Shown piece after piece: positions 1,247 to 26,082 of a stretch of DNA of 64,000 bases; the first letter of the stretch is position 1, and each line of letters opens with the position of its first letter. Origin of the DNA: Desulfatiglandales bacterium. GTDB lineage: Bacteria > Desulfobacterota > DSM-4660 > Desulfatiglandales > Desulfatiglandaceae. The position numbers and the translations under genes are program-made. The stretch lies in contig OY759599.1 in assembly GCA_963662465.1 (NCBI GenBank), positions 3,328,001 through 3,392,000 of the forward strand, read 5' to 3'. The notes under the pieces are model-generated. The model was given only the letters and a program-made list of their open reading frames with translations. It was not told the origin of the DNA and did no database searches.

Positions 1247-1452
1247 GAACAGATACTATAATAATGTATGAAGGTATGAAAGCTCTCCGTGGGAAACTTG
1301 ATATCATTGAAACAGAAAAATTTATAAGTCTGATTTTGAGAGAAAATTTTGACTATACAGAATGGCAACGGAATCTTTGGAAAGATAAAACTGTTGATGA
1401 AATTTTTTATGCTGCAAAAAACTATGATGAAAATATAAACAAAGAGGGCTAA
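1243..1452 (+). CDS. Putative antitoxin downstream of PIN toxin
   Basis: 69 aa, ATGA overlap with the toxin, DYTEWQR motif, stop codon inside attC R''. Confidence 0.7.
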   Translation: MRTDTIIMYEGMKALRGKLDIIETEKFISLILRENFDYTEWQRNLWKDKTVDEIFYAAKNYDENINKEG

Positions 1453-1530
1453 CCTGGCGCTCAAGCGGATTTGCGGGGTTCCGGTCGCTCCGCTCCCTCC
1501 ACCCCGCAAACCGCTTAGCTTAGCGTTGGC
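1447..1530 (+). other. attC site (target of intron stack)
   Basis: GGCTAAC-ctggc-GCTCAAGCGG...CCGCTTAGC-ttagc-GTTGGC. Confidence 0.9.
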
Positions 1531-3756
1531 GTGCGACGTGATGTCGCGTAAGTAGCTGTTTTGTATATTGATATAAACCATATAACAAAACCCTGTTTTC
1601 TGCAACAGGTATTCTACCGGGACATGCGTCCGGAGTAATCCGGGGGTGTGAAGCTCTCGGGACAATGAAGCCCGCGGAATCTTCCGGGAGAGGGAACCGT
1701 GAGGAGACCTCAACTCTGCAAGCATCATGCGGTAAGGGAGCTAGAATTGAGCAGTATGGTTAACACATGTGAATCGCTGCAGCGTCGTCACGAGAACAAG
1801 CCTAAGATGCTGAAAGGCTTGGACCAAACGGTATGTGGCCAGGTATGGGGGCTGCGAACTCCTCCATCGCGGATGTCGTGCCACCGGCGTACGGGCGGAA
1901 CCTAACCTGCTCGGGTACTTACGCGGAACATGGTAAGCCCGTAATCCTCCCCACGGGGAAAGCGAACCGCAAGGTGAGCCCATGGGGTTGCGGGTAAAGG
2001 ATGTCAGAAAAAAGCAAATGCCCCGTTGTAATGATGGGGATACGGATTGACGGTGTAATCACCTACATGATCCGGCTCGAAAGAGAGCAGACTTCTGACC
2101 GGTGTTCCATTGCGAGATAATTTGTAGAATCTTCAAACAGGGGAAAGCAAATGACGGTGGCCATTTTGGCGACTGGTGCACCTTTGGACGGAACAAACTG
2201 GTGGAAATCCATAAACTGGAGAACCGCCGGCGAGCACGTTAGAAGACTGCAGGTGCGTATCGCAAAGGCTGTGAAGGAAAAGCGATGGGGAAAGGTTAAG
2301 GCAATACAATGGCTTTTGACCCATTCGTTTTATGCCAAGTTGTTGGCCATCAAGCGCGTTACTTCCAACCGAGGTAAACGCACGCCGGGAGTGGATAAAG
2401 TTATATGGTCCACCCACATTGACAAAATGCAGGCGGCAAAAGACCTGCACCGAAGAACTTACCGACCCAAACCGCTGCGCCGAATTTACATACCCAAGAA
2501 AAACGGCAAGAAACGCCCATTGGGCATTCCCACCATGAAAGACAGAGCCATGCAGGCGTTGCACAAACTGGCCCTTGATCCGGTGGCGGAAACCACCGCC
2601 GATCCGAACTCTTATGGGTTCAGAGCCTATCGAGGATGTGCGGATGCCATCGGTCATTGTTTTATTTCTCTGGCCAAGAGCTACTCACCCGCATGGATTT
2701 TGGAGGGAGACATAAAGGCCTGTTTTGACGAAATCAGCCATCAATGGATGCTCGAAAATATCCCCATGGATAAACGGACGCTTCAGAAATGGCTGAAATC
2801 CGGTTATGTGGAAGGAGGCAAGCTCTATCCGACTTACAGAGGAACCCCGCAAGGCGGGATTATCTCTCCAACATTGGCTAATATGGTCCTGGATGGTCTG
2901 GAAGCGGCAGCCAAAAGTACCGCCCCGATAAGAATCCAGGGCAATATACGGTCCAAGATAAACGTAATCCGTTACGCTGATGATTTCATCATCACCGGGA
3001 ATTCCAGAGAGATGCTAAATGAGATCAAGCTGGAAATTGAAGCATTTATGGAGCGAAGAGGACTTTCGCTTTCAGCGGAAAAGACGTTGATCACAAGGAT
3101 AGAAGAAGGATTTGATTTTCTCGGACAGAATCCACGCAAATACCAGGGGAAGCTCTTGATAAAGCCCTCTCGTAAAAACGTGAAAGCCTTCTTAGGCAAT
3201 ATCCGGCAAACGATCCGAAAGCATGCGGCATCAAGAGCCGACACCCTGATTAAAGTGCTCAATCCCAAAATCAGGGGATGGGCCAATTACCACAGGCATG
3301 TGGTTTCCGGTAGAACTTTCGGGCTTGTAGATCACCGTATCTACAGCTATATTTGGCAATGGATGAGGAGGAAACATTCGGGCAAGAGTAAGAGTTGGCT
3401 GGTGGATAAATACTGGTCAAAAGGATCTCGTCCGTGGTCCTTTTCAGCGGTGATCAAGGACGGCTATGCGAAATCCGCTAGAATTGAACTTGAGAAAGCT
3501 TACGACGTCAAGATAAAACGCCATGTCAAAATTCGAGGGGATGCGAACCCCTTCGATCCGAAATATGAACACTATTTCAGGAAACGATATGCCCAACGCA
3601 GTCAGCAGAAGGCAGACAGGCGTAAAGAGCATAAAACGTCACAACCGGGTAGCCCCGAAAGGGCTTGCCTTTGGAATGCTTGAGCCGTGTGCGTTTAACG
3701 GCGCACGCACGGTTCTTAGAGGGCTGGGGGATGGCAACATCCCCTGGCTACTCGAC
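1531..3756 (+). mobile_element. Group II intron family A copy 1 (CL1-like/IIB), intact
   Basis: 5' GTGCG; domain V GAGCCGTGTGCGTTTAACGGCGCACGCACGGTTC; domain VI ending CTACTCGAC; RT ORF in domain IV. Confidence 0.93.
2151..3683 (+). CDS. ltrA: Group II intron reverse transcriptase/maturase, no HNH endonuclease domain
   Basis: RVT_N-type N-terminus (VRRLQVRIAKA), RPLGIP, PQGG, YADD, domain X LNPKIRGWANY. Confidence 0.95.
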   Translation: MTVAILATGAPLDGTNWWKSINWRTAGEHVRRLQVRIAKAVKEKRWGKVKAIQWLLTHSFYAKLLAIKRVTSNRGKRTPGVDKVIWSTHIDKMQAAKDLHRRTYRPKPLRRIYIPKKNGKKRPLGIPTMKDRAMQALHKLALDPVAETTADPNSYGFRAYRGCADAIGHCFISLAKSYSPAWILEGDIKACFDEISHQWMLENIPMDKRTLQKWLKSGYVEGGKLYPTYRGTPQGGIISPTLANMVLDGLEAAAKSTAPIRIQGNIRSKINVIRYADDFIITGNSREMLNEIKLEIEAFMERRGLSLSAEKTLITRIEEGFDFLGQNPRKYQGKLLIKPSRKNVKAFLGNIRQTIRKHAASRADTLIKVLNPKIRGWANYHRHVVSGRTFGLVDHRIYSYIWQWMRRKHSGKSKSWLVDKYWSKGSRPWSFSAVIKDGYAKSARIELEKAYDVKIKRHVKIRGDANPFDPKYEHYFRKRYAQRSQQKADRRKEHKTSQPGSPERACLWNA

Positions 3757-5981
3757 GTGCGACGTGATGTCGCGTAAGTAGCTGTTTTGTATATCAATAT
3801 AAACCATATAACAAAACCCTGTTTTCTGCAACAGGTATTCTACCGGGACATGCGTCCGGAGTAATCCGGGGGTGTGAAGCTCTCGGGACAATGAAGCCCG
3901 CGGAATTTTCCGGGAGAGGAAACCGTGAGGGGACCTCAACTCTGCAAGCATCATGCGGTAAGGGAGCTAGAATTGAGCAGTACGGTTAACACATGTGAAT
4001 CGCTGCAGCGTCGTCACGAGAACAAGCCTAAGATGCTGAAAGGCTTGGACCAAAAGGTACGTGGCCAGGAACGGAGGCTGCGAACTCCTCCGTCGCGGAT
4101 GTTGTGCCACCGGCGTAAAGGCGGAACCTAACCTGCTCTGGTACTTACGCGGAACATGGTAAGCCCGTAATCCTCCCCACGGGGAAAGCGAACCGCAAGG
4201 TGAGCCCATGGGGTTGCGGGTAAAGGATGTCAGAAAAAGCGAATGCCTCGTTGTAATGATGGGGATACGGATTGAAGGTGTAACTACCTACATGATCCGG
4301 CTCGAAAGAGAGCAGACTTCTGACCGGTGTTCCATTGCGAGATAATCTGTCGAATCTTTAAACAGGGGAAAGCAAATGACGGTGGCCGTTTTGGCGACTG
4401 GTGCACCTTTGGACGGAACAAACTGGTGGAAATCCATAAACTGGAAAACCGTCGGCGAGCACGTTAGAAGACTGCAGGTGCGTATCGCAAAGGCTGTGAA
4501 GGAAAAGCGATGGGGAAAAGTCAAGGTGATACAGTGGCTTTTGACTCATTCGTTTTATGCCAAGTTGTTGGCTATCAAGCGCGTTACTTCCAACCGGGGT
4601 AAACGCACACCGGGAGTGGATAAAGTCATATGGTCCACCCACATTGACAAAATGCAGGCGGTAAACGACCTGCGCCGAAGAGCCTACCGACCCAAACCGC
4701 TGCGCCGAATTTACATACCCAAGAAAAACGGCAAGAAACGCCCATTGGGCATTCCCACAATGAAGGACAGAGCCATGCAGGCGTTGTACAAATTGGCGCT
4801 TGATCCGGTGGCGGAAACCACCGCCGATCCGAACTCTTACGGGTTCAGACCCTATCGGGGATGTGCGGATGCCATCGGTCAGTGTTTTATTTCTCTGGCC
4901 AAGCGCCACTCACCCGTATGGATTCTGGAGGGAGATATAAAGGCCTGTTTTGATGAAATCAGCCATCAATGGATGCTCGAAAATATCCCTATGGATAAAC
5001 GGACGCTTCAGAAATGGCTGAAATCCGGTTATGTGGAAGGAGGCAAGCTCTATCCAACTTACAGAGGAACCCCGCAAGGCGGGATTATCTCTCCAACATT
5101 GGCTAATATGGTCCTGGATGGTCTGGAAGCGGCAGCCAAAAGTACCGCCCCGATAAGAATCCAGGGCAATATACGGTCCAAGATAAACGTAATCCGTTAC
5201 GCTGATGATTTCATCATCACCGGGAATTCCAGAGAGATGCTAAATGAGATCAAGCTGGAAATTGAAGCATTTATGGAGCGAAGAGGACTTTCGCTTTCAG
5301 CGGAAAAGACGTTGATCACAAGGATAGAAGAAGGATTTGATTTTCTCGGACAGAATCCACGCAAATACCAGGGGAAGCTCTTGATAAAGCCCTCTCGCAA
5401 AAACGTGAAAGCCTTTTTAGGCAATATCCGGCAAACAATCCGAAAGCATGCGGCATCAAGAGCCGACATTCTGATTAAAGTACTCAATCCCAAAATCAGG
5501 GGGTGGGCCAATTACCACAGGCATGTGGTTTCCGGTAGAACTTTCGGGCTTGTAGATCACCGTATCTACAGCTATATTTGGCAATGGATGAGGAGGAAAC
5601 ATTCGGGCAAGAGTAAGAGTTGGCTGGTGGATAAATACTGGTCAAAAGGATCTCGCCCGTGGTCCTTTTCAGCGGTGATCAAGGACGGCTATGCGAAATC
5701 CGCCAGAATTGAACTTGAGAAAGCTTACGACGTCAAGATAAAACGCCATGTCAAAATTCGAGGGGATGCGAACCCCTTCGATCCGAAATATGAACAATAT
5801 TTCAGGAAACGATATGCCCAACGCAGTCAGCAGAAGGCAGACAGGCGTAAAGAGCATAAAACGTCACAACCGGGTAGCCCCGAAAGGGCTTGCCTTTGGA
5901 ATGCTTGAGCCGTGTGCGTTTAACGGCGCACGCACGGTTCTTAGAGGGCTGGGGGATGGTGACATCCCCTGGCTACTCGAC
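3757..5981 (+). mobile_element. Group II intron family A copy 2, intact, abutting copy 1
   Basis: Junction CTCGAC|GTGCGAC at 3756/3757; same domain structure as copy 1. Confidence 0.93.
4376..5908 (+). CDS. ltrA: Group II intron reverse transcriptase/maturase
   Basis: 510 aa, close paralog of 2151-3683, YADD intact. Confidence 0.95.
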   Translation: MTVAVLATGAPLDGTNWWKSINWKTVGEHVRRLQVRIAKAVKEKRWGKVKVIQWLLTHSFYAKLLAIKRVTSNRGKRTPGVDKVIWSTHIDKMQAVNDLRRRAYRPKPLRRIYIPKKNGKKRPLGIPTMKDRAMQALYKLALDPVAETTADPNSYGFRPYRGCADAIGQCFISLAKRHSPVWILEGDIKACFDEISHQWMLENIPMDKRTLQKWLKSGYVEGGKLYPTYRGTPQGGIISPTLANMVLDGLEAAAKSTAPIRIQGNIRSKINVIRYADDFIITGNSREMLNEIKLEIEAFMERRGLSLSAEKTLITRIEEGFDFLGQNPRKYQGKLLIKPSRKNVKAFLGNIRQTIRKHAASRADILIKVLNPKIRGWANYHRHVVSGRTFGLVDHRIYSYIWQWMRRKHSGKSKSWLVDKYWSKGSRPWSFSAVIKDGYAKSARIELEKAYDVKIKRHVKIRGDANPFDPKYEQYFRKRYAQRSQQKADRRKEHKTSQPGSPERACLWNA

Positions 5982-6806
5982 TTGCGACACGAAGTCGCAT
6001 AGTTTGAGTGTATTCATGTAGTTAAATGTAGTACCCGGTATGTTCCTACCGGACCCTACGCAGGCATGCTGCCGTTGCGCTAATGACGGGGTGTGAAGCC
6101 CTGCGGACAACGTACCGAATTGGGTTTGAATGGTGACAGGAGAACCCCTCCGGGAATCCTCCCCGGTTAAGGGCCAGGGTCGGATGATATGGTGAAATTA
6201 ATTGAATGTCTTTAAGCGCCGATTACAAGCGACGGACCTACGAGGATTAATAGGTCTTATGCCGCTGCCCAGTGTCAGCGGATGTGGTCAGGTTGCAGGT
6301 CTGTCAACTGCCTGCACGGAACTGTTGTACCACCGGCGTAGAGGGCGCACCTAAGTCATCCATTGGATCAACTATGTGGAACGTGGAAACCCGGTCCCGT
6401 CGCCCCTTTTGGGGGCAGGCTAACCGCAAGGCATGCTGTTGGCGGGCCGGAATAGGAGGCTGAAAGAAGCGAATGCCGGGCTGTAATGGTCCGGATACCG
6501 GGTGAAACATTCCCGACTCCGTAAGGAGGCAGACGTTCAGCGTGGTGCCCGATCACGTGAACACCGGAGGAATCAGATGAAAGCCGGGAAAACAGCCAGT
6601 GAAACGGGCGAATGACGGCCCTTGAGGCTGGTGCGCCCCGCGCGCCTTTGGCTACTCTGACAGCCGGCTTGTAACGTGAAGTGGATGCAAATCCGCGGGA
6701 ATCCCAACCAGGGAAACCTTTTCGGGGGCTTGAGCCACGTGAGGTGAAAGTCTCATGCGTGGTTCTGAGGGGACTCGGAGATGGCAACATCCCCCGGCTA
6801 CCCGGC
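5982..6806 (+). mobile_element. ORF-less group II intron family B copy 1
   Basis: 5' TTGCG; domain V GAGCCACGTGAGGTGAAAGTCTCATGCGTGGTTC; ends CTACCCGGC; ORF remnant MTALEAGAP; second copy at 25258-26082. Confidence 0.88.
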
Positions 6807-9049: not shown

Positions 9050-9134
9050 GGTTAACCAAACGCTGCACCAGACGCCTGATACTTGGGCGGTTCCGGCGGG
9101 GGCAGGTGGAGGCGCTGGTGAGCTTGTCGTTGGC
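9050..9134 (+). other. attC site
   Basis: GGTTAAC-caaac-GCTGCACCAGACGCC...GGCGCTGGTGAGC-ttgtc-GTTGGC. Confidence 0.9.
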
Positions 9135-9767
9135 ATGCGACGTGATGTCGCGTAAGTAGCAGTTTTATATATTGATATAAACCATATAACAAAACCCTGT
9201 TTTCTGCAACAGGCATTCTACCGGGACATGCGTCCGGAGTAATCCGGGGGTGTGAAGCTCTCGGGACAATGAAGCCCGCGGAATTTTCCGGAAGAGGGAA
9301 CCGTGAGGGGACCTCAACTCTGCAAGCATCATGCGGTGAGGGAGCTAGAATTGAGCAGTACGGTTAACACATGTGAATCGCTGCAGCGTCGTCACGAGAA
9401 CAAGCCTAAGATGCTGAAAGGCTTGGACCAAAAGGTACGTGGCCAGGAACGGAGGCTGCGAACTCCTCCGTCGCAGATGTCGTGCCACCGGCGTAGGGGC
9501 GGAACCTAACCTGCTCGGGTACTTACGCGGAACATGGTAAGCCCGTAATCCTCCCCACGGGGAAAGCGAACCGCAAGGTGAGCCCATGGGGTTGCGGGTA
9601 AAAGATGTCAGAAAAAGCGAATGCCTTGTTGTAATGATGGGGATACGGATTGATGGTAATCACCGACATGATCCGGCTCGAAAGAGAGCAGACTTCTGAC
9701 CGGTGTTCCATTGCGAGATAATCTGTAGAATCTTCAAACAGGGGAAAGCAGCCAGTGAAACGGGCGA

Positions 9768-11626
9768 ATGACGGTGGCCGTTCTGGCGACTGGTGCACCT
9801 TTGGACGGAACAAACTGGTGGAAATCCATAAACTGGAAAACCGCCGGGGAGCATGTTAGAAGACTGCAGGTGCGTATCGCAAAGGCTGTGAAGGAAAAGC
9901 GATGGGGAAAAGTCAAGGTGATACAGTGGCTTTTGACTCATTCGTTTTATGCCAAGTTGTTGGCTATCAAGCGCGTTACTTCCAACCGGGGTAAACGCAC
10001 ACCGGGAGTGGATAAAGTCATATGGTCCACCCACATTGACAAAATGCAAGCGGTAAACGACCTGCGCCGAAGAGCCTACCGACCCAAACCGCTGCGCCGA
10101 ATTTACATACCCAAGAAAAACGGCAAGAAACGCCCATTGGGCATTCCCACAATGAAGGACAGAGCCATGCAGGCATTGTACAAATTGGCGCTTGATCCGG
10201 TGGCGGAAACCACCGCCGATCCGAACTCTTACGGGTTCAGACCCTATCGGGGATGTGCAGATGCCATCGGTCAGTGTTTTATTTCTCTGGCCAAGCGCTA
10301 CTCACCCGTATGGATTCTGGAGGGAGATATAAAGGCCTGTTTTGATGAAATCAGCCATCAGTGGATACTCGAAAATATCCCGATGGATAAACGGACGCTT
10401 CAGAAATGGCTGAAAGCCGGGTATGTAGAAGGAGGCAAGCTCTATCCGACATACAGAGGAACCCCGCAAGGCGGCTTATGCAAAGCTTTGCATAACCCGC
10501 CTTATGCCAAGTTGCCGATTATGCAAAGTAAACCGCTAAAGCTACCAGATTTCCAACACGTTCACTGAGTTTACTTTGCATAATATCACGGGTACCTCAA
10601 ACTTGAAATCCAATTAAACGATGCAGCATCCTTGGTTTATTTTGGATAAAATGATCTGGTTTTTTCCGACAAACGATTTTGTGAGCTTTTCGCTCAGTCA
10701 TCATTAGCAAAGATTATGCTAAGTAAATCAAAAAGAAACCCTTGAATTACAATGCGTTTTATGGCTTACTTTGCATAATTACTTTCTTTGCATAAGGCGG
10801 GATTATCTCTCCAACATTGGCTAATATGGTCCTGGATGGTCTGGAAGCGGCAGCCAAAAGCACCGCCCCGATAAGAATTCAGGGAAATATACGGTCCAAG
10901 ATAAACGTAATCCGCTACGCTGATGATTTTATCATCACCGGGAATTCCAGAGAGATGCTAAATGAGATCAAGCTGGAAATTGAAGCATTTATGGAGCGAA
11001 GAGGTCTTTCGCTTTCAGCGGAAAAGACGTTGATCACAAGGATAGAAGAAGGATTTGATTTTCTCGGACAAAGTTCACGCAAATACGGAGGAAAACTTTT
11101 GATAAAGCCCTCTCGCAAAAACGTGAAAGCCTTTTTAGGCAATATCCGGAAAACAATCCGAAAGCATGCGGCATCAAGAGCCGACATTCTGATTAAAGTA
11201 CTCAATCCCAAAATCAGGGGGTGGGCCAATTACCACAGGCATGTGGTTTCCGGTAGAACTTTCGGGCTTGTAGATCACCGTATCTACAGCTATATTTGGC
11301 AATGGATGAGGAGGAAACATTCGGGCAAGAGTAAGAGTTGGCTGGTGGATAAATACTGGTCAAAAGGATCTCGCCCGTGGTCCTTTTCAGCGGTGATCAA
11401 GGACGGCTATGCGAAATCCGCCAGAATTGAACTTGAGAAGGCTTACGACGTCAAGATAAAACGCCATGTCAAAATTCGAGGGGATGCGAACCCCTTCAAT
11501 CCGAAATATGAACAATATTTCAGGAAACGATATGCCCAACGCAGTCAGCAGAAGGCAGACAGGCGTAAAGAGCATAAAACGTCACAACCGGGTAGCCCCG
11601 AAAGGGCTTGCCTTTGGAATGCTTGA
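9768..11626 (+). pseudogene. ltrA: Intron RT split by insertion at PQGG
   Basis: Two ORF halves, 9768-10568 and 10817-11626. Confidence 0.92.
10476..10795. mobile_element. Miniature non-coding element, variant 1 (RIT-like ends)
   Basis: GGCGGC|20-bp palindrome|CCCGCC|body with TTATGC(A/C)AAG inverted ends|GGCGGG; absent from copies 1-2. Confidence 0.88.
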
Positions 11627-11761
11627 GCCGTGTGCGTTTAACGGCGCACGCACGGTTCTTAGAGGGCTGGGGGATGGCAACATCCCCTGGCTACTCGACC
11701 AGACCCGCTGGACAGCGGGGGAACTTAACGTCGAAAATTGGTAGAAATAGGTAAAATCGCA

Positions 11762-13887: not shown

Positions 13888-13889
13888 TC

Positions 13890-14126: not shown

Positions 14127-14732
14127 AGAAAGGCCGGGCTTGCTAATTTGGCCGATCAGGTGCGCCAATGCTAAGTTCAGGTTTTCGCACTGGGGTAGCT
14201 TTGGCGTGGATTATCCGGTTCTATGCCTTTGTTACGTCTGTATGCGTAGGGATTCGAATGTACAAAGGAATAAGTCGTCATGTTTTATGAAAGTGAGGCC
14301 TAATTACTCCGTGATCCCGTGTAGTTAAAAACTTCGAGATCGGTTATGGGGATAGGGAGGAGCCTCACAGCTCCCCCCTCCCACACCACCGTACATACGG
14401 GTCCGTATACGGCGATTCGGCTGGTCAGAGCAGGCAAGGATAAAACAGGTTCCGCCCTACCGGGTTTTCCAGAATGCGACGTTATCGACCTTTCAGCTAC
14501 TGCTGCATTAGACCAATAAGTACACGTTCTTTGACAACCACAACCATTTACCCCTGCCATTCGGCAGGTGGCACCGTTCGGGCCTTCACCGGAGTGAGGC
14601 CTCCCTTTATTCAGGGCTCGTTTCTCCGGCTTAATATGCCCTCTGCTGACTCCCGTTACGCGGTGGGCTCCCCTTTCGGTTCGCTCACTCGTAGTTTCCG
14701 CAATCTGTCGAGTCCATTTGTTTGTGTTTCCC

Positions 14733-16738
14733 CGCATAAGTCTAAATGTTGTGGGGTTGTATAACCCATCAAAATTAAAAGGCGTTTTCGGTAAACAAGA
14801 ATGCATTATGAACCTTCATAACTTGAATCCAAGGTAAGTCAAATGTTTGGCCGTTGGCTAATTCAAAGGGACTTTTATGAGCATTTTTTGCGCCAGGTAA
14901 AAATGGGACAAAATTCCTGATAGTCGCATGTGCTCGAAAGAAAAGACTTGCCCATTTCTTATCTCGAAAACTCTCAATTTGTTTTAGTTTACGTTTGATT
15001 CCTTTTAAATAATTGTCAACAATGGAGGTTGTTTGTTTTATCCCATTTCTATTTTTATGAGAGGTATAATGAGTGGCATTTTCTTTTAATTCTACTACCC
15101 TCTTTTTTAGTAATGGATGAGAAAATGCATCGTCATCTAATGCCTTAATCTTTACTTCCAAGTTAACTTTAGATGTGGATGTTTTCAAAACTTTCTTAAA
15201 TTTTTTATAAAGCTTGTCCACTTCTTGGTCGGTACATTTTGATTCTTTTTGATATTTTGATAGTGCATCGTAGAAGTTTTTCAAACAATGACGATGGCAA
15301 TATCCGACCCAAATGTTATGGAATACGGTCTTGATAGCATTGGTTGAGGCTTTCCACTTATCTTTTGTTACACCAAGGATTTTGAAGTCGATTTTTTGCA
15401 AAAAATCCTCAAATGAACCGCACAGGTTTTCTTCATCAACATGATCAACATAATCGGAGTGCCATACTAATAAATTTTCAGGATCGACCATAACTACAGA
15501 ATAAGTTCTTAAATTTGGTTCTTTTTCAAAGCCCTCATCTTCCTGTAGATATCCTGAGCCTTTCACTCCTGCTCTTGTTAGTATTGTTGCAGGATGAAGT
15601 GTTCCTGCCCATCGATTCCAGTTCAAGATGGTCTGTTTGCTTTTGACACTTTTTTTGCCAATAATTTTAAGGCTTTCGATGGCTCCTTGAATGCTCGCAT
15701 TAAAACGGTACATATTCCGAAATACGTGCCCAATAATCTCTATACCAAAATTCTTTTCCCTTGGGAGAAAGCTGGGAACAAGAGAGAACTTTTGTTTGCA
15801 CTTCCGGCATTGTATCATGCGGATTGGGAATGTCTGTTGTTCTCCTCCATTCATTATTGTTTTTCGAGGATTCCCGCGGAAACCAGATAAAATATATTCT
15901 TTAGGTCCAGAACATGTTGAATTATGGCCTGTGTGGTGATCATATTTATCGAGTTTATCTAATACTTCAATGCGAAACTTCTTACTATCTTTTACGAGAG
16001 CATGATAGCTTTCGGTGTTATTATAAGGAAAGATATATGTTTGATTTCCTCGTTTAGAAACAAGGTCTTCCATTTTCTTTTTTACATTTTCGATTATGGA
16101 TTTATCAAAAGATTTTAACATCCCTATCTCAAATGCAATACTGATTGTACTATCACGACTTTTTACATTATTCAATTTTTTAGTAATATTACTTATCATT
16201 GAACGAATTGAATAAAAGATTCTAATTTTCTGTCGATCCCGTTGTGTTTTTGGAATGCTTTTTTTCCCTTTTATTGGCTTACAAATATCCCATAATTGAC
16301 TTATTAACCTACCAAGTTCATCAATAAGAGCAGACAATGTTACATAAAAATATTGCAATGATTGAAACATCTCCCTTTCATTGATCCATGATCTGATGGC
16401 ATTAATGCATTTCTCAATTTCAAAGAAAATCTCAGGATACTGTTTTGGATCGTAATAACATTGTCTTGCAAGTCTGTTTTGAGCTTTGTCCAACATTGTC
16501 AAAGCTCTCTTAATATTATTAATCATGTGCAACCTCTCTAATTTAACATAGACTGTTGCACTATGATTATGCACACTTATCAAAAAAAGTCCCTAACTTT
16601 TTTCCGCTAAGGCGAATTCAGGAAAAAATGTTTGGCCTCACGAAATGCGCTTTGATTAGGATATTGATTCTGAACCGTTTAACAGATGAAATAATTTCAA
16701 TATGTTAGAGTAAACCCCACAACATTTAGACTTATGCG
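14733..16738 (-). mobile_element. Insertion sequence, IS256/ISH6 (Mutator-like) superfamily
   Basis: Perfect 26-bp TIR CGCATAAGTCTAAATGTTGTGGGGTT; 8-bp TSD TGTTTCCC (14725-14732, 16739-16746); empty site visible in intron copy 24351-25176. Confidence 0.9.
14775..16583 (-). CDS. Putative transposase (602 aa)
   Basis: Only long ORF between the TIRs; QEDEG, TKD, CHRH (CxxH) and TTSIVDN motifs; start codon uncertain. Confidence 0.8.
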   Translation of the reverse strand: MISVHNHSATVYVKLERLHMINNIKRALTMLDKAQNRLARQCYYDPKQYPEIFFEIEKCINAIRSWINEREMFQSLQYFYVTLSALIDELGRLISQLWDICKPIKGKKSIPKTQRDRQKIRIFYSIRSMISNITKKLNNVKSRDSTISIAFEIGMLKSFDKSIIENVKKKMEDLVSKRGNQTYIFPYNNTESYHALVKDSKKFRIEVLDKLDKYDHHTGHNSTCSGPKEYILSGFRGNPRKTIMNGGEQQTFPIRMIQCRKCKQKFSLVPSFLPREKNFGIEIIGHVFRNMYRFNASIQGAIESLKIIGKKSVKSKQTILNWNRWAGTLHPATILTRAGVKGSGYLQEDEGFEKEPNLRTYSVVMVDPENLLVWHSDYVDHVDEENLCGSFEDFLQKIDFKILGVTKDKWKASTNAIKTVFHNIWVGYCHRHCLKNFYDALSKYQKESKCTDQEVDKLYKKFKKVLKTSTSKVNLEVKIKALDDDAFSHPLLKKRVVELKENATHYTSHKNRNGIKQTTSIVDNYLKGIKRKLKQIESFRDKKWASLFFRAHATIRNFVPFLPGAKNAHKSPFELANGQTFDLPWIQVMKVHNAFLFTENAF

Positions 16739-17186
16739 TGTTTCCCGACCAATAGGCCGGGCTCGTCAGGGCTATGACTCGAAATGTTCCTGACGCCAGG
16801 GTTTTGTTTTACCGGTTTTCCCTTATATTCCGGTAGATTTCAGTTGCAGTTCCCTACGAGACGCAACGGGCCTCCCGGGGTAAACACGTGTCTTTCCGCA
16901 CACGAGCGCCGACAACGTGCCTGGCCTATAGTAGTTAGAGGACTTTGTTCTGTGTTGCGGACTCGTCCCACCAGACCCGCCTCACTCGATTTCTGTTCGT
17001 CGCCCCGTGCGTTTGCGGTGCCCTGCCGCAGCAAGGCCACTGCCTCTCCAGGCCCGTTACCGGGTACCCGGTTGTGATACCGCTACACCCTTCGCCACTA
17101 CCTGGCTGGGTCTGGGACTTGCGTAAAATATCGGAAGCATGGTACATTGCGCGCACCCTTAAGAACACGTGCCGTGCCCGGCACAC

Positions 17187-17270
17187 AACCAAACGCTCCA
17201 CCAGACGCCTGACAGTCCTGCGGTCCTGGCAGGGGCCGAAGGAGGAGGCGCTGGTGAGCTTGTCGTTGGC
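17187..17270 (+). other. attC site flanked by introns at both ends
   Basis: (GGTT 14342-14345)|AAC-caaac-GCTCCACCAGACGCC...GGCGCTGGTGAGC-ttgtc-GTTGGC. Confidence 0.9.
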
Positions 17271-17903
17271 ATGCGACGTGATGTCGCGTAAGTAGCTGTT
17301 TTATATATTGATATAAACCATATAACAAAACCCTGTTTTCTGCAACAGGCATTCTACCGGGACATGCGTCCGGAGTAATCCGGGGGTGTGAAGCTCTCGG
17401 GACAATGAAGCCCGCGGAATTTTCCGGAAGAGGGAACCGTGAGGGGACCTCAACTCTGCAAGCATCATGCGGTGAGGGAGCTAGAATTGAGCAGTACGGT
17501 TAACACATGTGAATCGCTGCAGCGTCGTCACGAGAACAAGCCTAAGATGCTGAAAGGCTTGGACCAAAAGGTACGTGGCCAGGAACGGAGGCTGCGAACT
17601 CCTCCGTCGCAGATGTCGTGCCACCGGCGTAGGGGCGGAACCTAACCTGCTCGGGTACTTACGCGGAACATGGTAAGCCCGTAACCCTCCCCACGGGGAA
17701 AGCGAACCGCAAGGTGAGCCCATGGGGTTGCGGGTAAAGGATGTCAGAAAAAGCGAATGCCTCGTTGTAATGATGGGGATACGGATTGATGGTAATCACC
17801 GACATGATCCGGCTCGAAAGAGAGCAGACTTCTGACCGGTGTTCCATTGCGAGATAATCTGTAGAATCTTCAAACAGGGGAAAGCAGCCAGTGAAACGGG
17901 CGA

Positions 17904-19761
17904 ATGACGGTGGCCGTTTTGGCGACTGGTGCACCTTTGGACGGAACAAACTGGTGGAAATCCATAAACTGGAAAACCGCCGGGGAGCATGTTAGAAGAC
18001 TGCAGGTGCGTATCGCAAAGGCTGTGAAGGAAAAGCGATGGGGAAAAGTCAAGGTGATACAGTGGCTTTTGACTCATTCGTTTTATGCCAAGTTGTTGGC
18101 TATCAAGCGCGTTACTTCCAACCGGGGTAAACGCACACCGGGAGTGGATAAAGTCATATGGTCCACCCACATTGACAAAATGCAAGCGGTAAACGACCTG
18201 CGCCGAAGAGCCTACCGACCCAAACCGCTGCGCCGAATTTACATACCCAAGAAAAACGGCAAGAAACGCCCATTGGGCATTCCCACAATGAAGGACAGAG
18301 CCATGCAGGCATTGTACAAATTGGCGCTTGATCCGGTGGCGGAAACCACCGCCGATCCGAACTCTTACGGGTTCAGACCCTATCGGGGATGTGCGGATGC
18401 CATCGGTCAGTGTTTTATTTCTCTGGCCAAGCGCTACTCACCCGTATCGATTCTGGAGGGAGATATAAAGGCCTGTTTTGATGAAATCAGCCATCAATGG
18501 ATGCTCGAAAATATCCCGATGGATAAACGGACGCTTCAGAAATGGCTGAAAGCCGGGTATGTAGAAGGAGGCAAGCTCTATCCGACATACAGAGGAACCC
18601 CGCAAAGCGGGTTATGCAAAGCTTTGCATAACCCGCCTTATGCAAAGAAAGTAATTATGCAAAGTAAACCGTAAAAGCCATAATAATTCAAGAGATTCTT
18701 GTTGATTTGCTTAGCATAATCTCCACTTATGGTGAATGAGAAAAAGTTCAAAAAATCATTAGACAAAACAAAGGAGCTATTTTTATCCAAAACAAACGAA
18801 GAATGCTGCATCATTTACTTGGCTTTCAAGTCTGAAGTAGTCGTGATATTATGCAAAGTAAATTCAGTGCATATGCTTGAAATATTGCACCTTAACTGAT
18901 TTACTTTGCATAATCGTTAACTTTGCATAAGGCGGGATTATCTCTCCAACATTGGCTAATATGGTCCTGGATGGTCTGGAAGCGGCAGCCAAAAGCACCG
19001 CCCCGATAAGAATTCAGGGAAATATACGATCCAAAATAAACGTAATCCGCTACGCTGATGATTTTATCATCACCGGGAATTCCAGAGAGATGCTAAATGA
19101 GATCAAGCTGGAAATTGAAGCATTTATGGAGCGAAGAGGTCTTTCGCTTTCAGCGGAAAAGACGTTGATCACAAGGATAGAAGAAGGATTTGATTTTCTC
19201 GGACAAAGTTCACGCAAATACGGAGGAAAACTTTTGATAAAGCCCTCTCGCAAAAACGTGAAAGCCTTTTTAGGCAATATCCGGAAAACAATCCGAAAGC
19301 ATGCGGCATCAAGAGCCGACATTCTGATTAAAGTACTCAATCCCAAAATCAGGGGGTGGGCCAATTACCACAGGCATGTGGTTTCCGGTAGAACTTTCGG
19401 GCTTGTAGATCACCGTATCTACAGCTATATTTGGCAATGGATGAGGAGGAAACATTCGGGCAAGAGTAAGAGTTGGCTGGTGGATAAATACTGGTCAAAA
19501 GGATCTCGCCCGTGGTCCTTTTCAGCGGTGATCAAGGACGGCTATGCGAAATCCGCCAGAATTGAACTTGAGAAGGCTTACGACGTCAAGATAAAACGCC
19601 ATGTCAAAATTCGAGGGGATGCGAACCCCTTCGATCCGAAATATGAACAATATTTCAGGAAACGATATGCCCAACGCAGTCAGCAGAAGGCAGACAGGCG
19701 TAAAGAGCATAAAACGTCACAACCGGGTAGCCCCGAAAGGGCTTGCCTTTGGAATGCTTGA
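17904..19761 (+). pseudogene. ltrA: Intron RT split by insertion
   Basis: Halves 17904-18674 and 18952-19761. Confidence 0.92.
18612..18930. mobile_element. Miniature non-coding element, variant 2 (body inverted relative to variant 1)
   Basis: AGCGGG|palindrome|CCCGCC|body|GGCGGG. Confidence 0.88.
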
Positions 19762-19979
19762 GCCGTGTGCGTTTAACGGCGCACGCACGGTTCTTAGAGG
19801 GCTGGGGGATGGCAACATCCCCTGGCTACTCGACTTGATGAGCTTCTGCAAAGGAGAAGGAAGATGTTAAGCGTGTATTTGCCGGTAATTGGAAACATCA
19901 ATAAGAGGCCTCGTATCTCGGACTTCGCTTCAGCGCGTTAGCCACTTGAAAATCAGCCTGTAAAGGAGAATGCTTAGCT

Positions 19980-20869: not shown

Positions 20870-20954
20870 CGCCAACCAAACGCTCCAGCGGACCCCTGAA
20901 AGTCTGTCGGTTCTAGCGGGGACCGGTGGAGGGGCCGCTGAACTTGTCGTTCGC
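20870..20954 (+). other. attC site
   Basis: CGCCAAC-caaac-GCTCCAGCGGACCCC...GGGGCCGCTGAAC-ttgtc-GTTCGC. Confidence 0.88.
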
Positions 20955-21587
20955 GTGCGACGTGATGTCGCGTAAGTAGCTGTTTTATATATTGATATAA
21001 ACCATACAACAAAACCCTGTTTTCTGCAACAGGTATTCTACCGGGACATGCGTCCGGAGTAATCCGGGGGTGTGAAGCTCTCGGGACAATGAAGCCCGCG
21101 GAATTTTCCGGAAGAGGGAACCGTGAGGGGACCTCAACTCTGCAAGCATCATGCGGTGAGGGAGCTAGAATTGAGCAGTACGGTTAACACATGTGAATCG
21201 CTGCAGCGTCGTCACGAGAACAAGCCTAAGATGCTGAAAGGCTTGGACCAAAAGGTACGTGGCCAGGAACGGAGGCTGCGAACTCCTCCGTCGCAGATGT
21301 CGTGCCACCGGCGTAGGGGCGGAACCTAACCTGCTCGGGTACTTACGCGGAACATGGTAAGCCCGTAATCCTCCCCACGGGGAAAGCGAACCGCAAGGTG
21401 AGCCCATGGGGTTGCGGGTAGAGGATGTCAGAAAAAGCGAATGCTCCGTTGTAATGATGGGGATACGGATTGATGGTAATCACCGACATGATCCGGCTCG
21501 AAAGAGAGCAGACTTCTGACCGGTGTTCCATTGCGAGATAATCTGTAGAATCTTCAAACAGGGGAAAGCAGCCAGTGAAACGGGCGA

Positions 21588-23445
21588 ATGACGGTGGCCG
21601 TTCTGGCGACTGGTGCACCTTTGGACGGAACAAACTGGTGGAAATCCATAAACTGGAAAACCGCCGGGGAGCATGTTAGAAGACTGCAGGTGCGTATCGC
21701 AAAGGCTGTGAAGGAAAAGCGATGGGGAAAAGTCAAGGTGATACAGTGGCTTTTGACTCATTCGTTTTATGCCAAGTTGTTGGCTATCAAGCGCGTTACT
21801 TCCAACCGGGGTAAACGCACACCGGGAGTGGATAAAGTCATATGGTCCACCCACATTGACAAAATGCAAACGGTAAACGACCTGCGCCGAAGAGCCTACC
21901 GACCCAAACCGCTGCGCCGAATTTACATACCCAAGAAAAACGGCAAGAAACGCCCATTGGGCATTCCCACAATGAAGGACAGAGCCATGCAGGCATTGTA
22001 CAAATTGGCGCTTGATCCGGTAGCGGAAACCACCGCCGATCCGAACTCTTACGGGTTCAGACCCTATCGGGGATGTGCGGATGCCATCGGTCAGTGTTTT
22101 ATTTCTCTGGCCAAGCGCTACTCACCCGTATGGATTCTGGAGGGAGATATAAAGGCCTGTTTTGATGAAATCAGCCATCAATGGATGCTCGAAAATATCC
22201 CGATGGATAAACGGACGCTTCAGAAATGGCTGAAAGCCGGGTATGTAGAAGGAGGCAAGCTCTATCCGACATACAGAGGAACCCCGCAAGGCGGGTTATG
22301 CAAAGCTTTGCATAACCCGCCTTATGCAAAGAAAGTAATTATGCAAAGTAAACCGTAAAAGCCATAATAATTCAAGAGATTCTTGTTGATTTGCTTAGCA
22401 TAATCTCCACTTATGGTGAATGAGAAAAAGTTCAAAAAATCATTAGACAAAACAAAGGAGCTATTTTTATCCAAAACAAACGAAGAATGCTGCATCATTT
22501 ACTTGGCTTTCAAGTCTGAAGTAGTCGTGATATTATGCAAAGTAAATTCAGTGCATATGCTTGAAATATTGCACCTTAACTGATTTACTTTGCATAATCG
22601 TTAACTTTGCATAAGGCGGGATTATCTCTCCAACATTGGCTAATATGGTCCTGGATGGTCTGGAAGCGGCAGCCAAAAGCACCGCCCCGATAAGAATTCA
22701 GGGAAATATACGGTCCAAGATAAACGTAATCCGCTACGCTGATGATTTTATCATCACCGGGAATTCCAGAGAGATGCTAAATGAGATCAAGCTGGAAATT
22801 GAAGCATTTATGGAGCGAAGAGGTCTTTCGCTTTCAGCGGAAAAGACGTTGATCACAAGGATAGAAGAAGGATTTGATTTTCTCGGACAAAGTTCACGCA
22901 AATACGGAGGAAAACTTTTGATAAAGCCCTCTCGCAAAAACGTGAAAGCCTTTTTAGGCAATATCCGGAAAACAATCCGAAAGCATGCGGCATCAAGAGC
23001 CGACATTCTGATTAAAGTACTCAATCCCAAAATCAGGGGGTGGGCCAATTACCACAGGCATGTGGTTTCCGGTAGAACTTTCGGGCTTGTAGATCACCGT
23101 ATCTACAGCTATATTTGGCAATGGATGAGGAGGAAACATTCGGGCAAGAGTAAGAGTTGGCTGGTGGATAAATACTGGTCAAAAGGATCTCGCCCGTGGT
23201 CCTTTTCAGCGGTGATCAAGGACGGCTATGCGAAATCCGCCAGAATTGAACTTGAGAAGGCTTACGACGTCAAGATAAAACGCCATGTCAAAATTCGAGG
23301 GGATGCGAACCCCTTCGATCCGAAATATGAACAATATTTCAGGAAACGATATGCCCAACGCAGTCAGCAGAAGGCAGACAGGCGTAAAGAGCATAAAACG
23401 TCACAACCGGGTAGCCCCGAAAGGGCTTGCCTTTGGAATGCTTGA
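21588..23445 (+). pseudogene. ltrA: Intron RT split by insertion
   Basis: Halves 21588-22358 and 22636-23445. Confidence 0.92.
22296..22614. mobile_element. Miniature non-coding element, variant 2
   Basis: GGCGGG|TTATGCAAAGCTTTGCATAA|CCCGCC|body|GGCGGG. Confidence 0.88.
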
Positions 23446-23607
23446 GCCGTGTGCGTTTAACGGCGCACGCACGGTTCTTAGAGGGCTGGGGGATGGTGAC
23501 ATCCCCGGCTACTCGACCCAGAATATTGGCTACAACTGGATCGCAGTGGCGACCAAATAAGTACACAGTGAAGTGTATAAAGATCCATATCCGAGGGCCG
23601 AAAATAG

Positions 23608-23988: not shown

Positions 23989-24290
23989 AATCAATCAGGA
24001 AATATCTGAACGAACTTCAACGGCTTGGCGTCCCAATCAAATTCGGCATTTTGTTCGGTTCACACGCTCGCAAAGACACAAACAAATGGAGTGACATAGA
24101 TTTGTTAGTAGTGTCACCTCGATATGATGAATCTTACAACCGAGAAGATATCAATATGCTTTGGCGGACCGCAGCCCGCACAGACAACCGGATAGAACCC
24201 GTCCCCGTAGGTCTTCACCGGTGGGAAACGGACGACGAAAGTACAATCATCGAAGCAGCACGACGCGAGGGAATACTGGTAAACGCATAA
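23967..24290 (+). CDS. Minimal nucleotidyltransferase (MNT) antitoxin
   Basis: LFGSHAR...SDIDLLVVS. Confidence 0.88.
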   Translation: MAQESIIKSIRKYLNELQRLGVPIKFGILFGSHARKDTNKWSDIDLLVVSPRYDESYNREDINMLWRTAARTDNRIEPVPVGLHRWETDDESTIIEAARREGILVNA

Positions 24291-24350
24291 GATATGACAA
24301 AAAACCACATGCTATTGAAAATAAGCATCCAAACTTACCCTATAGCGGTT

Positions 24351-25176
24351 ATAGGGATAGGGAGGAGCCTCACAGCTCCCCCCTCCCACCACCGTACATA
24401 CGGGTCCGTATACGGCGATTCGGCTGGTCAGAGCAGGCAAGGATAAAACAGGTTCCGCCCTACCGGGTTTTCCAGAATGCGACGTTATCGACCTTTCAGC
24501 TACTGCTGCATTAGACCAATAAGTACACGTTCTTTGACAACCACAACCATTTACCCCTGCCATTCGGCAGGTGGCACCGTTCGGGCCTTCACCGGAGTGA
24601 GGCCTCCCTTTATTCAGGGCTCGTTTCTCCGGCTTAATATGCCCTCTGCTGACTCCCGTTACGCGGTGGGCTCCCCTTTCGGTTCGCTCACTCGTAGTTT
24701 CCGCAATCTGTCGAGTCCATTTGTTTGTGTTTCCCGACCAATAGGCCGGGCTCGTCAGGGCTATGACTCGAAATGTTCCTGACGCCAGGGTTTTGTTTTA
24801 CCGGTTTTCCCTTATATTCCGGTAGATTTCAGTTGCAGTTCCCTACGAGACGCAACGGGCCTCCCGGGGTAAACACGTGTCTTTCCGCACACGAGCGCCG
24901 ACAACGTGCCTGGCCTATAGTAGTTAGAGGACTTTGTTCTGTGTTGCGGACTCGTCCCACCAGACCCGCCTCACTCGATTTCTGTTCGTCGCCCCGTGCG
25001 TTCGCGGTACCCTGCCGAAGCAAGGTCACTGCCTTCCCAGGCACCGTTACCGAATACCCGGTTGTGATACCGCTACACCCTTCGCCACTACCTGGCTGGG
25101 TCTGGGACTTGCGTAACATATCGGAAGCATGATATATTACGCGCACCCTTAAGAACACGTGCCGTGCCCGGCACAC
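24351..25176 (-). mobile_element. ORF-less group IIC-attC intron copy 2
   Basis: 826-nt uninterrupted copy; splits R'' GGTT|AAC. Confidence 0.88.
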
Positions 25177-25257
25177 AACCAAACGCTCCACCAGACGCCT
25201 GATAGTCCGGCGGTTCCGGCGAGGGCTGGCAGAGGCGCTGGTGAGCTTACCGTTGGC
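25177..25257 (+). other. attC site flanked by introns at both ends
   Basis: AAC-caaac-GCTCCACCAGACGCC...GGCGCTGGTGAGC-ttacc-GTTGGC. Confidence 0.9.
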
Positions 25258-26082
25258 TTGCGACACGGAGTCGCATAGTTTAAGTGTATTCATGTAGTTA
25301 CATGTATTACCCGGTATGTCCCTACCGGACCCTACGCAGGCATGCTGCCGTTGCGCTGATGACGGGGTGTGAAGCCCTGCGGACAACGTACCGAATTGGG
25401 TTTGAATGGCGACAGGAGAACCCCTCCGGGAATCCTCCCCGGTTAAGGGCCAGGGTCAGATGATATGGTGAAGGTATCTGAATGTCTTTAAGCGTCGATC
25501 ACAAGCGAAGGGCCTACGAGGATTAACAGGTCTTATGCCGCTGCCCAGTGTCAGCGGATGTGGTCAGGTTGCAGGTCTGCTAACTGCCTGCACGGAACTG
25601 TTGTACCACCGGCGTAGAGGGCGCACCTAAGTCATCCATTGGATCAACTATGTGGAACGTGGAAACCCGGTCCCGCCGCCCCTTTTGGGGGCAGGCTAAC
25701 CGTAAGGCATGCTGTTGGCGGGCCGGAGTAGGAGGCTGAAAAAAGCGAATGCCGGGCTGTAATGGTCCGGATACCGGGTGAAACATTCCCGGCTCCGTAA
25801 GGAGGCAAACGTTCAGCGTGGTGCCCGATCACGTGAACACCGGAGGAATCAGATGAAAGCGGGGAAAGCAGCCAGTGAAACGGGCGAATGACGGCCCTTG
25901 AGGCTGGTGCGCCCCGCGCGCCTTTGGCTACTCTGACAGCCGGCTTGTAACGTGAAGTAGATGCAAATCCGCGGGAATCCCAACCAGGGAAACCTTTTCG
26001 GGGGCTTGAGCCACGTGAGGTGAAAGTCTCATGCGTGGTTCTGAGGGGGGAATGGGACTGAGAGGTCCCTGACCTACCCGAT
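25258..26082 (+). mobile_element. ORF-less group II intron family B copy 2
   Basis: 5' TTGCG, domain V as in copy 1, ends CTACCCGAT. Confidence 0.88.

What the first reader, a model, noticed from the sequence alone, without database searches (positions are those of the whole stretch)
1447..26082. CL1-like group II introns whose EBS1/EBS2 read the top-strand R' arm of integron attC sites
Seen: five attC sites carry a same-strand intron immediately after GTT(G/C)GC (1530/1, 9134/5, 17270/1, 20954/5, 25257/8). In family A a stem that covaries between copies (ATGGGGG/CCTCCAT vs ACGGAGG/CCTCCGT) presents GCGAAC (1854-1859). This pairs 6/6 with the exon GTTCGC (20949-20954) and 5/6 with GTTGGC. ACAAGC (1796-1801) pairs 6/6 with GCTTGT one base upstream, at 9122-9127 and at the equivalent position before 17265. 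Established: the well-known attC-targeting introns are class IIC; they use a short EBS1 plus a hairpin and insert on the bottom strand in R''. Inference: this is a second, sequence-programmed strategy. It keeps the G/TT crossover intact and places the intron at the 5' end of the downstream cassette, co-oriented with array transcription, so it could splice out and also hitch-hike on IntI-excised cassettes. I cannot exclude that isolated non-IIC attC introns have been reported.
Basis: partly seen in the sequence, partly recalled or inferred. Interest (0 to 1): 0.9.

Follow-up and report, generated by a model that had tools for sequence, protein, structure and literature searches.

The report
Group IIB introns homing to integron attC
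Mobile self-splicing introns of a class not normally linked to integrons sit, facing the same way as the genes, just past the recombination point of integron cassette sites, which one of their RNA loops is built to recognise by base pairing.

Summary
The window has seven co-oriented group II introns, not five, at five attC sites. One site carries a head-to-tail stack of three. All begin right after GTTNNN of the attC R' core. Their reverse transcriptase is chloroplast-like/IIB1 and has no endonuclease domain. It scores 568 bits against the TeI4h enzyme and at most 114 against class C enzymes.

A covarying hairpin presents a loop hexamer ending in AAC, which pairs with GTTNNN. This holds across three families in this genome and about 15 lineages elsewhere. 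Occupied sites are enriched for GTTNGC. In one related family the AAC sits one base further along the loop, and the insertion point shifts by one base.

The proposed EBS2 is convincing for family B but doubtful for family A. Hitch-hiking on cassettes is inferred, not shown.

It is not wholly new. One IIB1/CL1 intron after an attC, UHB.I2, was published in 2021 (PMC7923331), without this pairing logic. This scan had already noted the same lineage in other windows of this genome. I rate it a new variant of a known kind.

The parts
1447..1530 (+). attC site; the R' core GTTGGC ends at 1530
   Evidence: The bottom strand folds as a hairpin, z=-3.3.
1531..3756 (+). Intron A1, family A, CL/IIB1. Intact 510-aa RT ORF at 2151-3683.
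   Evidence: RF02012 at 1591-1740 and RF00029 at 3680-3756. RVT_N, RVT_1 and GIIM domains, no endonuclease domain. Two other genome copies are 100% identical over the first 620 nt and the RT.
1854..1859 (+). EBS1 (GCGAAC) of A1, in the 9-nt loop of the Id3-like hairpin. The same offset, +323 from the intron start, gives 4080-4085, 9458-9463, 17594-17599 and 21278-21283 in A2-A5.
   Evidence: All 7 of 7 stem pairs covary across 16 introns.
1796..1801 (+).
3757..5981 (+). Intron A2, stacked directly behind A1. Intact RT ORF at 4376-5908.
   Evidence: 96.8% identical to A1.
5982..6806 (+). Intron B1, family B, ORF-less, 5' TTGCG, stacked behind A2. EBS1 GTCAAC at 6303-6308; ACAAGC at 6225-6230.
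9050..9134 (+). attC site; core GTTGGC at 9129-9134 and GCTTGT at 9122-9127.
9135..11699 (+). Intron A3. Its first base is A. The RT is split by a 331-nt insert at 10468-10798. An IS91-type transposase cassette follows (ORF 11738-12937).
14340..17186 (-). Bottom-strand intron (RF02001 type) inserted at R'' of the attC at 17187. It holds a 602-aa non-RT ORF at 14775-16583. The ends are approximate.
17187..17270 (+). attC site flanked by introns on both sides, in opposite orientation.
17271..19834 (+). Intron A4. Its first base is A. The RT is split by a 330-nt insert at 18604-18933.
20870..20954 (+). attC site; core GTTCGC at 20949-20954, a 6/6 match to EBS1 of family A.
20955..23517 (+). Intron A5. 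The RT is split by an insert at 22288-22617.
   Evidence: Contigs of other copies skip 325 nt here.
24345..25176 (-). ORF-less bottom-strand intron (RF02001 type) at R'' of the attC at 25177. The ends are approximate.
25177..25257 (+). attC site; core GTTGGC ends at 25257.
25258..26082 (+). Intron B2, ORF-less, 5' TTGCG. EBS1 GCTAAC at 25579-25584; ACAAGC at 25501-25506. A second IS91-type cassette follows (ORF 26144-27319).

Best explanation
These are members of a clade of chloroplast-like (CL/IIB1) group II introns that lack the endonuclease domain and use ordinary IIB homing by base pairing. Their homing site has become the top-strand R' end of integron attC sites.

How it works:
- The 3' half of EBS1 is fixed as AAC and reads the near-universal GTT core.
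- The 5' half varies between families (GCG, GCT, GTC, CTC and others). It reads the first bases of the downstream cassette.
- Reverse splicing therefore places the intron 6 nt after the G of GTT (5 nt in one related family), co-oriented with the cassettes. The folded attC and the G/TT crossover are left intact.
- Intact RT copies, including A1 and A2 in this window, probably drive ORF-less copies and copies with a disrupted RT in trans.
- Because the whole target lies in the 5' exon, a filled site can be hit again. That would give the A1-A2-B1 stack.

Shown here: placement, intron class, the EBS1 hairpin and its match to the exons, enrichment at matching cores, and the clade-wide habit.

Inferred: splicing from cassette transcripts, trans-mobilisation, and travel with cassettes through IntI.
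For: Class:
- The RT has RVT_N, RVT_1 and GIIM domains and no HNH domain.
- It scores 568 bits against the TeI4h RT, 144 against LtrA and at most 114 against IIC RTs.
- TeI4h is described as CL/IIB1 (PMC2882425, passages).

EBS1:
- The hairpin is paired in 95.5% of cells, 7 of 7 pairs change on both sides, and 0 of 500 shuffles reach the observed values.
- The loop hexamer, taken at a fixed register, pairs with its own exon at a mean of 5.47/6 in 15 lineages. With shuffled exons the mean is 3.43, and 0 of 20000 shuffles reach the observed value. For three lineages I used the best-matching copy.
- Within this genome, 18 copies at attC sites pair at a mean of 5.28/6, against 4.31 for random empty sites (0 of 20000).

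Register shift: in G162/G163 the AAC lies one base further 5' in the loop, and the intron sits after GTTNN in 6 of 6 loci.

Occupancy: 12 of 18 GTTNGC sites are filled, against 5 of 36 others.

Independent insertion events: the 3' exons of the A copies examined all differ.

Copies in this genome: of 28, 20 are at attC arms, 4 at attI-like junctions, 3 stacked behind another intron, and 1 unclear.

Clade: an RT clade with 97/98 support holds 9 lineages at attC R', 1 elsewhere and 2 with the 5' exon not visible. Outside this genome, 13 of 22 loci with a visible 5' exon are at an attC R' end. I judged attC by eye.

Recent activity: three copies are 100% identical at three different arrays.
Against: - No experiment or RNA evidence is available. 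The laid runs were contigs and give no verdict on splicing.
- Several copies pair poorly with their exon: 3/6 and 4/6 cases, and meta_L051 at 4/6.
- The EBS2 of family A is doubtful.
- The enrichment weakens as the attC definition tightens: p=0.19 for 25 exact arms.
- Copies in one genome are not fully independent.
- Most copies here are ORF-less, have a split RT, or are interrupted after DV. Positions 1 of A3 and A4 (A) and of family B (T) depart from the consensus G. A natural T1 is mobile in TeI4h (PMC2882425, Table 1 passage).
- attC calls outside this genome used no covariance model.
- The RT tree has only 18 rows, chosen by likeness to this RT.
Confidence: 0.8

Rival explanations
1. Recognition by structure, as in class C introns. 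The extruded or single-stranded attC hairpin, here the top strand, is the main determinant. The intron lands just past its base, and the short pairing only fine-tunes the site.
For: - Every attC-sited copy lies at the 3' foot of a hairpin.
- Sonbol and Siam raise this idea for UHB.I2 (PMC7923331, sections 11 and 12).
- Some copies pair at only 3-4/6.
- The RT lacks an endonuclease domain, like IIC enzymes.
Against: - Clade relatives at non-attC sites show 6/6 EBS1 pairing with their own exons (L055, L056).
- The insertion point moves with the position of AAC in the loop.
- Desulfamplus relatives insert inside the left arm, not after the hairpin.
- Occupancy tracks the NNN sequence.
- A stacked intron is re-inserted although the downstream sequence is another intron.
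Confidence: 0.12
2. Passive spread. One or a few ancient insertions at a cassette 5' end were multiplied by cassette duplication and IntI shuffling, without attC-directed retrohoming.
For: - The intron lies inside the mobile cassette unit.
- Four copies sit at attI-like junctions where the upstream sequence offers no IBS2 match.
- Cassettes are amplified in this genome.
Against: - Each A copy precedes a different cassette.
- Three families with different EBS1 loops each match their own cores.
- Two different families, A3 and B2, sit in front of the same IS91-type cassette. Its 15 intron-free copies read A, not C, at position -1.
- There are stacks of introns at single sites.
- Identical copies lie in different arrays.
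Confidence: 0.05

Closest known systems
UHB.I2, a IIB1/CL1 intron in a soda-lake metagenome cassette array (Sonbol and Siam 2021, PMC7923331; I read the abstract, sections 7, 11 and 12, and passages; supplements not seen)
   Same: CL1/IIB1 class, RT without endonuclease domain, same orientation as the cassettes, immediately after an attC. Its 5'-UUGCG start matches family B here.
   Different: - It is a single copy on a contig edge.
- The authors found no conserved exon logic and suggested a role for the hairpin.
- Here there are 28 copies in three families, EBS1 reads GTTNNN, and the habit is clade-wide.
Group IIC-attC introns such as S.ma.I2 (PMC3001079 abstract; PMC4424553 and PMC7923331 passages)
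   Same: Group II introns specialised on integron attC sites, with RTs lacking the endonuclease domain. The window carries such bottom-strand introns at two of the same attC sites.
   Different: - Class C RT and ribozyme.
- Bottom strand, at R'', opposite to cassette transcription.
- Short EBS1 plus hairpin recognition.
- The introns here are CL/IIB1, on the top strand at R', co-oriented, with 6-bp EBS1 pairing.
TeI3/TeI4 introns of Thermosynechococcus elongatus (PMC2882425, passages)
   Same: - CL/IIB1, and the closest solved RT.
- Proliferation into families that differ in their EBS sequences.
- ORF-less copies mobilised by driver RTs.
- A natural T at position 1 that is still mobile.
- An EBS2 that is hard to read from the structure.
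   Different: - The T. elongatus targets are diverse genomic sites, not integron sites.
- The TeI4h RT has an endonuclease domain.
- Its introns form twintrons rather than head-to-tail stacks.

Membership tests
Group II intron, chloroplast-like CL1 / IIB1 | Intron-encoded RT with RT and maturase (X) domains | tested here: met
   RVT_N, RVT_1 and GIIM. TIGR04416 scores 362 bits against a cut-off of 300.
Group II intron, chloroplast-like CL1 / IIB1 | RT groups with CL/IIB1 references rather than ML or class C | tested here: met
   568 bits against the TeI4h RT, 144 against LtrA and at most 114 against IIC RTs. No labelled class reference set was available, so the split between CL1 and CL2 rests on the literature statement that TeI4h is IIB1.
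Group II intron, chloroplast-like CL1 / IIB1 | Ribozyme domains D1 and D5/D6 | tested here: met
   RF02012 and RF00029 are found above the gathering score in all 7 introns.
Group II intron, chloroplast-like CL1 / IIB1 | EBS1 loop pairing with the last 6 nt of the 5' exon | tested here: met
Group II intron, chloroplast-like CL1 / IIB1 | EBS2-IBS2 pairing | tested here: inconclusive
   In family B, ACAAGC lies in the junction 5' of the Id2-like hairpin. It pairs 6/6 with GCTTGT at several sites but only 4/6 at B1 and B2. In family A it overlaps a conserved stem. A systematic scan was stopped.
Group II intron, chloroplast-like CL1 / IIB1 | EBS3-IBS3 pair with the first 3' exon base | not tested
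   The first 3' exon bases vary: C, T, G and A.
Group IIC-attC introns | Class C RT | tested here: not met
   IIC RTs score at most 114 bits, against 568 for the CL enzyme.
Group IIC-attC introns | Bottom-strand insertion at R'', opposite to the cassettes | tested here: not met
   Top strand, after R', same strand as the cassette ORFs.
Integron attC site (the target) | Imperfect inverted repeat closed by AAC/GTT cores, with bulged bases on the folded bottom strand | tested here: met
   The arms covary between sites.
Integron attC site (the target) | An array of co-oriented cassettes next to intI and attI | tested here: met
   An intI of 444 bits (cut-off 265) lies at 3287696-3288643. The attI junction is at about 3288830. 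PIN, HEPN and IS91-type cassettes are present.
Integron attC site (the target) | Match to the IntegronFinder attC covariance model | not testable with these tools
   That model is not held here.

The most novel reading that the evidence does not exclude
A whole clade of IIB1 introns may be dedicated integron riders. Their EBS1 loop copies the R'' half-site, the natural partner of R', so any cassette boundary is a potential homing site.

Having landed at the first bases of a cassette, they would then move a second way, as cargo of IntI-excised cassettes. That would explain the copies at attI junctions.

In this genome they fill about a third of the attC sites. They stack at single sites and share sites with class C introns, so they may shape how arrays grow, are expressed and recombine.
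Probability: 0.35. Interest if true: 0.75.

Novelty: new variant of a known kind. Interest (0 to 1): 0.62.

Why it matters
A 2015 review lists three target specificities for bacterial group II introns and assigns attC targeting to class C alone (PMC4424553, passages). Here a homing-type IIB lineage reaches the same target by plain base pairing, on the other strand and at the other end of the site.

This gives a testable rule: NNNAAC reads GTTNNN. It also shows a second route by which retroelements colonise integrons, and a natural case of two mobility systems, retrohoming and IntI recombination, acting on one unit. IIB introns can be reprogrammed, so an intron that is naturally aimed at cassette boundaries could become a tool for marking or probing integron arrays.

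Tried and rejected
- **Class C identity:** rejected.
- **MFE folding of D1:** it did not give a usable D1 model. I used comparative alignment instead.
- **Public runs:** 22 runs were listed. The four I laid were contigs only. They gave no verdict on splicing and no empty sites for these loci. The joints seen come from other genomic copies.
- **Wide scans with the RT:** the genome-contig scan gave 9 loci and the metagenome scan gave 5. The pattern-based scans reach close relatives only, so the sample is small.
- **Systematic EBS2 scan:** EBS2 statements therefore rest on reading the alignments by eye.
- **Source of the bottom-strand introns' RT:** I looked for an RT-bearing copy of them and found none. 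All 15 BLAST matches are ORF-less or fragments.
- **Base at position -1:** I first treated the difference between the 15 intron-free IS91-type cassettes (GTTGGA) and the two filled ones (GTTGGC) as unexplained. It fits selection for a C that pairs with the first G of EBS1, but this is not shown.
- **Literature:** five searches found only PMC7923331 for a non-class-C intron at attC. Subscription journals are not covered.
Full report
**What is there**

Rfam finds seven group II introns on the + strand between 1531 and 26082, each with a D1 match (RF02012) and a D5/D6 match (RF00029). It also finds two on the - strand, with RF02001 and RF00029.

The + strand introns fall into two families:

| Family | Copies (window coordinates) | Features |
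|---|---|---|
| A | A1 1531-3756, A2 3757-5981, A3 9135-11699, A4 17271-19834, A5 20955-23517 | 94-99% identical to each other |
| B | B1 5982-6806, B2 25258-26082 | 825 nt, ORF-less, start TTGCG |

A1, A2 and B1 are stacked head to tail behind one attC.

A1 and A2 carry intact 510-aa RT genes. In A3-A5 the RT is split by an insert of about 330 nt.

**The target is an integron attC**

- Each 5' exon ends with an imperfect inverted repeat, closed by AAC on the left and GTT on the right.
- The bottom strands fold into hairpins with bulged bases. The arms change in a compensating way between sites.
- The genome has at least five integron integrases above the TIGR02249 cut-off. One lies 40 kb upstream of the window on the opposite strand. 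An attI junction lies next to it.
- The ORFs between sites are on the + strand. They include PIN, HEPN and IS91-type transposase cassettes. The array stops before a murJ gene at about 29.9 kb.

**Class**

- The RT has RVT_N, RVT_1 and GIIM domains and no endonuclease domain.
- Among solved structures it scores 568 bits against the TeI4h RT, over residues 8-485. It scores 144 against LtrA and at most 114 against class C enzymes.
- TeI4h is described as CL/IIB1, with EcI5 as its nearest relative (PMC2882425, passages).
- The refutation test 'RT groups with class C' therefore fails. I had no labelled reference set, so the CL1 label rests on this likeness and on the literature.

**EBS1**

Across 16 introns from this genome, related genomes and metagenomes, the hairpin that presents GCGAAC in family A is conserved. 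All 7 of its 7 pairs change on both sides, 95.5% of cells are paired, and 0 of 500 shuffles reach the observed values.

The loop is variable. A hexamer at a fixed register (2+6+1 in 9-nt loops, 3+6+2 in 11-nt loops) matches the last six bases of that intron's own 5' exon:

| Comparison | Own exon | Control | Shuffles reaching observed |
|---|---|---|---|
| 15 lineages | 5.47/6 | 3.43 with shuffled exons | 0 of 20000 |
| 18 attC-sited copies in this genome | 5.28/6 | 4.31 with random empty sites | 0 of 20000 |

For three of the 15 lineages I used the best-matching copy. The control for the second row includes some non-attC matches.

Loop and core pairs:
- Family A has GCGAAC and sits at GTTCGC, GTTGGC and GTTAGC.
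- Family B has GCTAAC, GTCAAC or CTCAAC.
- A third family elsewhere in the genome has a loop that pairs with GTTCGAG.
- Relatives at ordinary, non-attC sites (L055, L056) pair 6/6 with quite different exons. This confirms which loop is EBS1.

The strongest single result is a register shift. In genomes G162 and G163 the AAC lies one base further 5' in the loop, and the intron sits after GTTNN instead of GTTNNN in 6 of 6 loci.

**Occupancy**

Taking the window's 15-nt right arm by coordinates, the genome has 54 arms within two mismatches, and 17 of them carry an intron.

| attC arm definition | GTTNGC sites filled | Other sites filled | Fisher p |
|---|---|---|---|
| 2 mismatches or fewer | 12 of 18 | 5 of 36 | 1.6e-4 |
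| 1 mismatch or fewer | 8 of 14 | 5 of 27 | 0.017 |
| Exact match | 5 of 8 | 5 of 17 | 0.19 |

The looser 3-mismatch set gives p=1e-7 but contains non-attC matches.

The 3' exons of the A copies all differ, so these are separate insertions.

The IS91-type cassette occurs 17 times. The 15 intron-free copies read GTTGGA before the cassette body. The two filled copies, one with A3 and one with B2, read GTTGGC. This fits a need for C at position -1, opposite the first G of EBS1, but other histories are possible.

**EBS2**

The complementarity between ACAAGC and GCTTGT is real.

- In family B, ACAAGC lies in the single-stranded junction just 5' of a conserved hairpin. This is where the Trueperaceae, Desulfamplus and L056 introns carry segments complementary to their own exons at about -13 to -8. 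B1 and B2 themselves pair only 4/6 there.
- In family A, ACAAGC overlaps the 5' strand of that conserved hairpin. Relatives that do not target attC carry the same stem sequence. A-like relatives in other genomes keep it although their attC arms lack GCTTGT.

I therefore rate the EBS2 of family A as doubtful. These comparisons were made by eye, because a systematic scan was stopped. The TeI4h authors also could not read EBS2 from the structure (PMC2882425, passage).

**Beyond this genome**

- The genome holds 28 such copies: 20 at attC arms, 4 at attI-like junctions, 3 stacked behind another intron, and 1 unclear.
- Elsewhere, 13 of 22 loci with a visible 5' exon sit at an attC-like R' end, 3 sit inside an attC left arm (a Desulfamplus MAG), and 6 sit at other sites. 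I judged attC by eye. Three further loci lack the 5' exon, and one distant archaeal hit was not examined.
- I built an RT tree of 18 rows, one per distinct RT. I left out duplicate copies L026, L028, L030, L060-L062 and L064, and the other family A copies of G000.
- In that tree a clade with 97/98 support holds families A and B and the L054 lineage. It has 9 rows at attC R', 1 elsewhere and 2 unknown.

**Mechanism and what is inferred**

- Because the RT lacks the endonuclease domain, it must rely on replication-fork primers. This is established for such introns (PMC4424553, passage).
- The stack at 1530 and the varied first bases of the 3' exons suggest that the target lies wholly in the 5' exon.
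- The four attI-junction copies have no upstream match to ACAAGC. They are most simply explained by IntI inserting a cassette that already carried the intron, but direct homing through EBS1 alone is not excluded.
- Splicing has not been shown.

**Prior knowledge**

- Reviews assign attC targeting to class C only (PMC4424553, passages).
- Sonbol and Siam (2021) reported one IIB1/CL1 intron, UHB.I2. It starts 5'-UUGCG, is co-oriented with the cassettes and lies just after an attC. They found no exon conservation and suggested a role for the hairpin (PMC7923331; abstract, sections 7, 11 and 12, and passages; supplements not seen).
- Five literature searches found nothing further.
- Earlier reports of this scan on other windows of the same genome reached the same reading. 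I saw them after forming mine.

Noticed in passing
window 10468-10798, 18604-18933, 22288-22617; also G000 3215908-3216238 and 4989413-4989744: An element of about 330 nt with hairpin ends splits the RT gene at the same conserved motif, near residue 235-238 of the RT. It occurs in both orientations. It is found in family A and also in two other group II RT genes that are only about 36% identical to it. It therefore seems to target the DNA that encodes this motif. Contigs of other copies skip exactly 325 nt, with 8 ambiguous bases.
   Followed up: partly
window 14340-17186 (-) and 24345-25176 (-): Bottom-strand RF02001-type introns sit at the R'' end of the same attC sites that carry A4 and B2 at R'. 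A single attC is thus flanked by two intron classes in opposite orientation. All 15 genomic matches are ORF-less or fragments, and no cognate RT was found.
   Followed up: partly
window 14775-16583 (-): A 602-aa ORF lies inside the bottom-strand intron. It has only weak DUF6431 and IS256-like matches and is not an RT. It is probably an inserted transposase-like gene.
   Followed up: no
L027, L029, L030 (Desulfamplus MAG): Related IIB introns (RT about 50% identical) are inserted inside the left arm of attC sites in 3 of 4 copies, splitting the site. EBS1 and a junction segment match that arm. This is a second top-strand position within attC.
   Followed up: partly
L053 2289-2310: A metagenome relative (RT 64% identical) ends 20 nt before the first repeat of a CRISPR array. 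The contig starts at the intron 5' end, so its target is not visible.
   Followed up: no
G000 genome-wide; ori about 5.76 Mb and ter about 1.80 Mb by GC skew: In 26 of 28 copies, the sense strand is the nascent lagging strand, so the top strand is the leading-strand template. Array orientation may dictate this. It would imply priming by the leading strand.
   Followed up: partly
window 11700-12937 and 26083-27319; G000 4413958-4425221: IS91-type (Y2_Tnp plus zinc-binding domain) transposase genes are packaged as integron cassettes. There are 17 copies in the genome, eight of them in tandem at one attI. Two of the 17 carry an intron at their first bases.
   Followed up: partly
G000 3315470, 3323085, 5887276, 6378633, 6751541: Five family B copies are interrupted at the same point after domain V by the same foreign sequence.
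   Followed up: no
window 6690-6806: B1 has a domain VI like that of family A and the B master copy, not like B2. It ends GC rather than AY, which suggests recombination between intron families.
   Followed up: no
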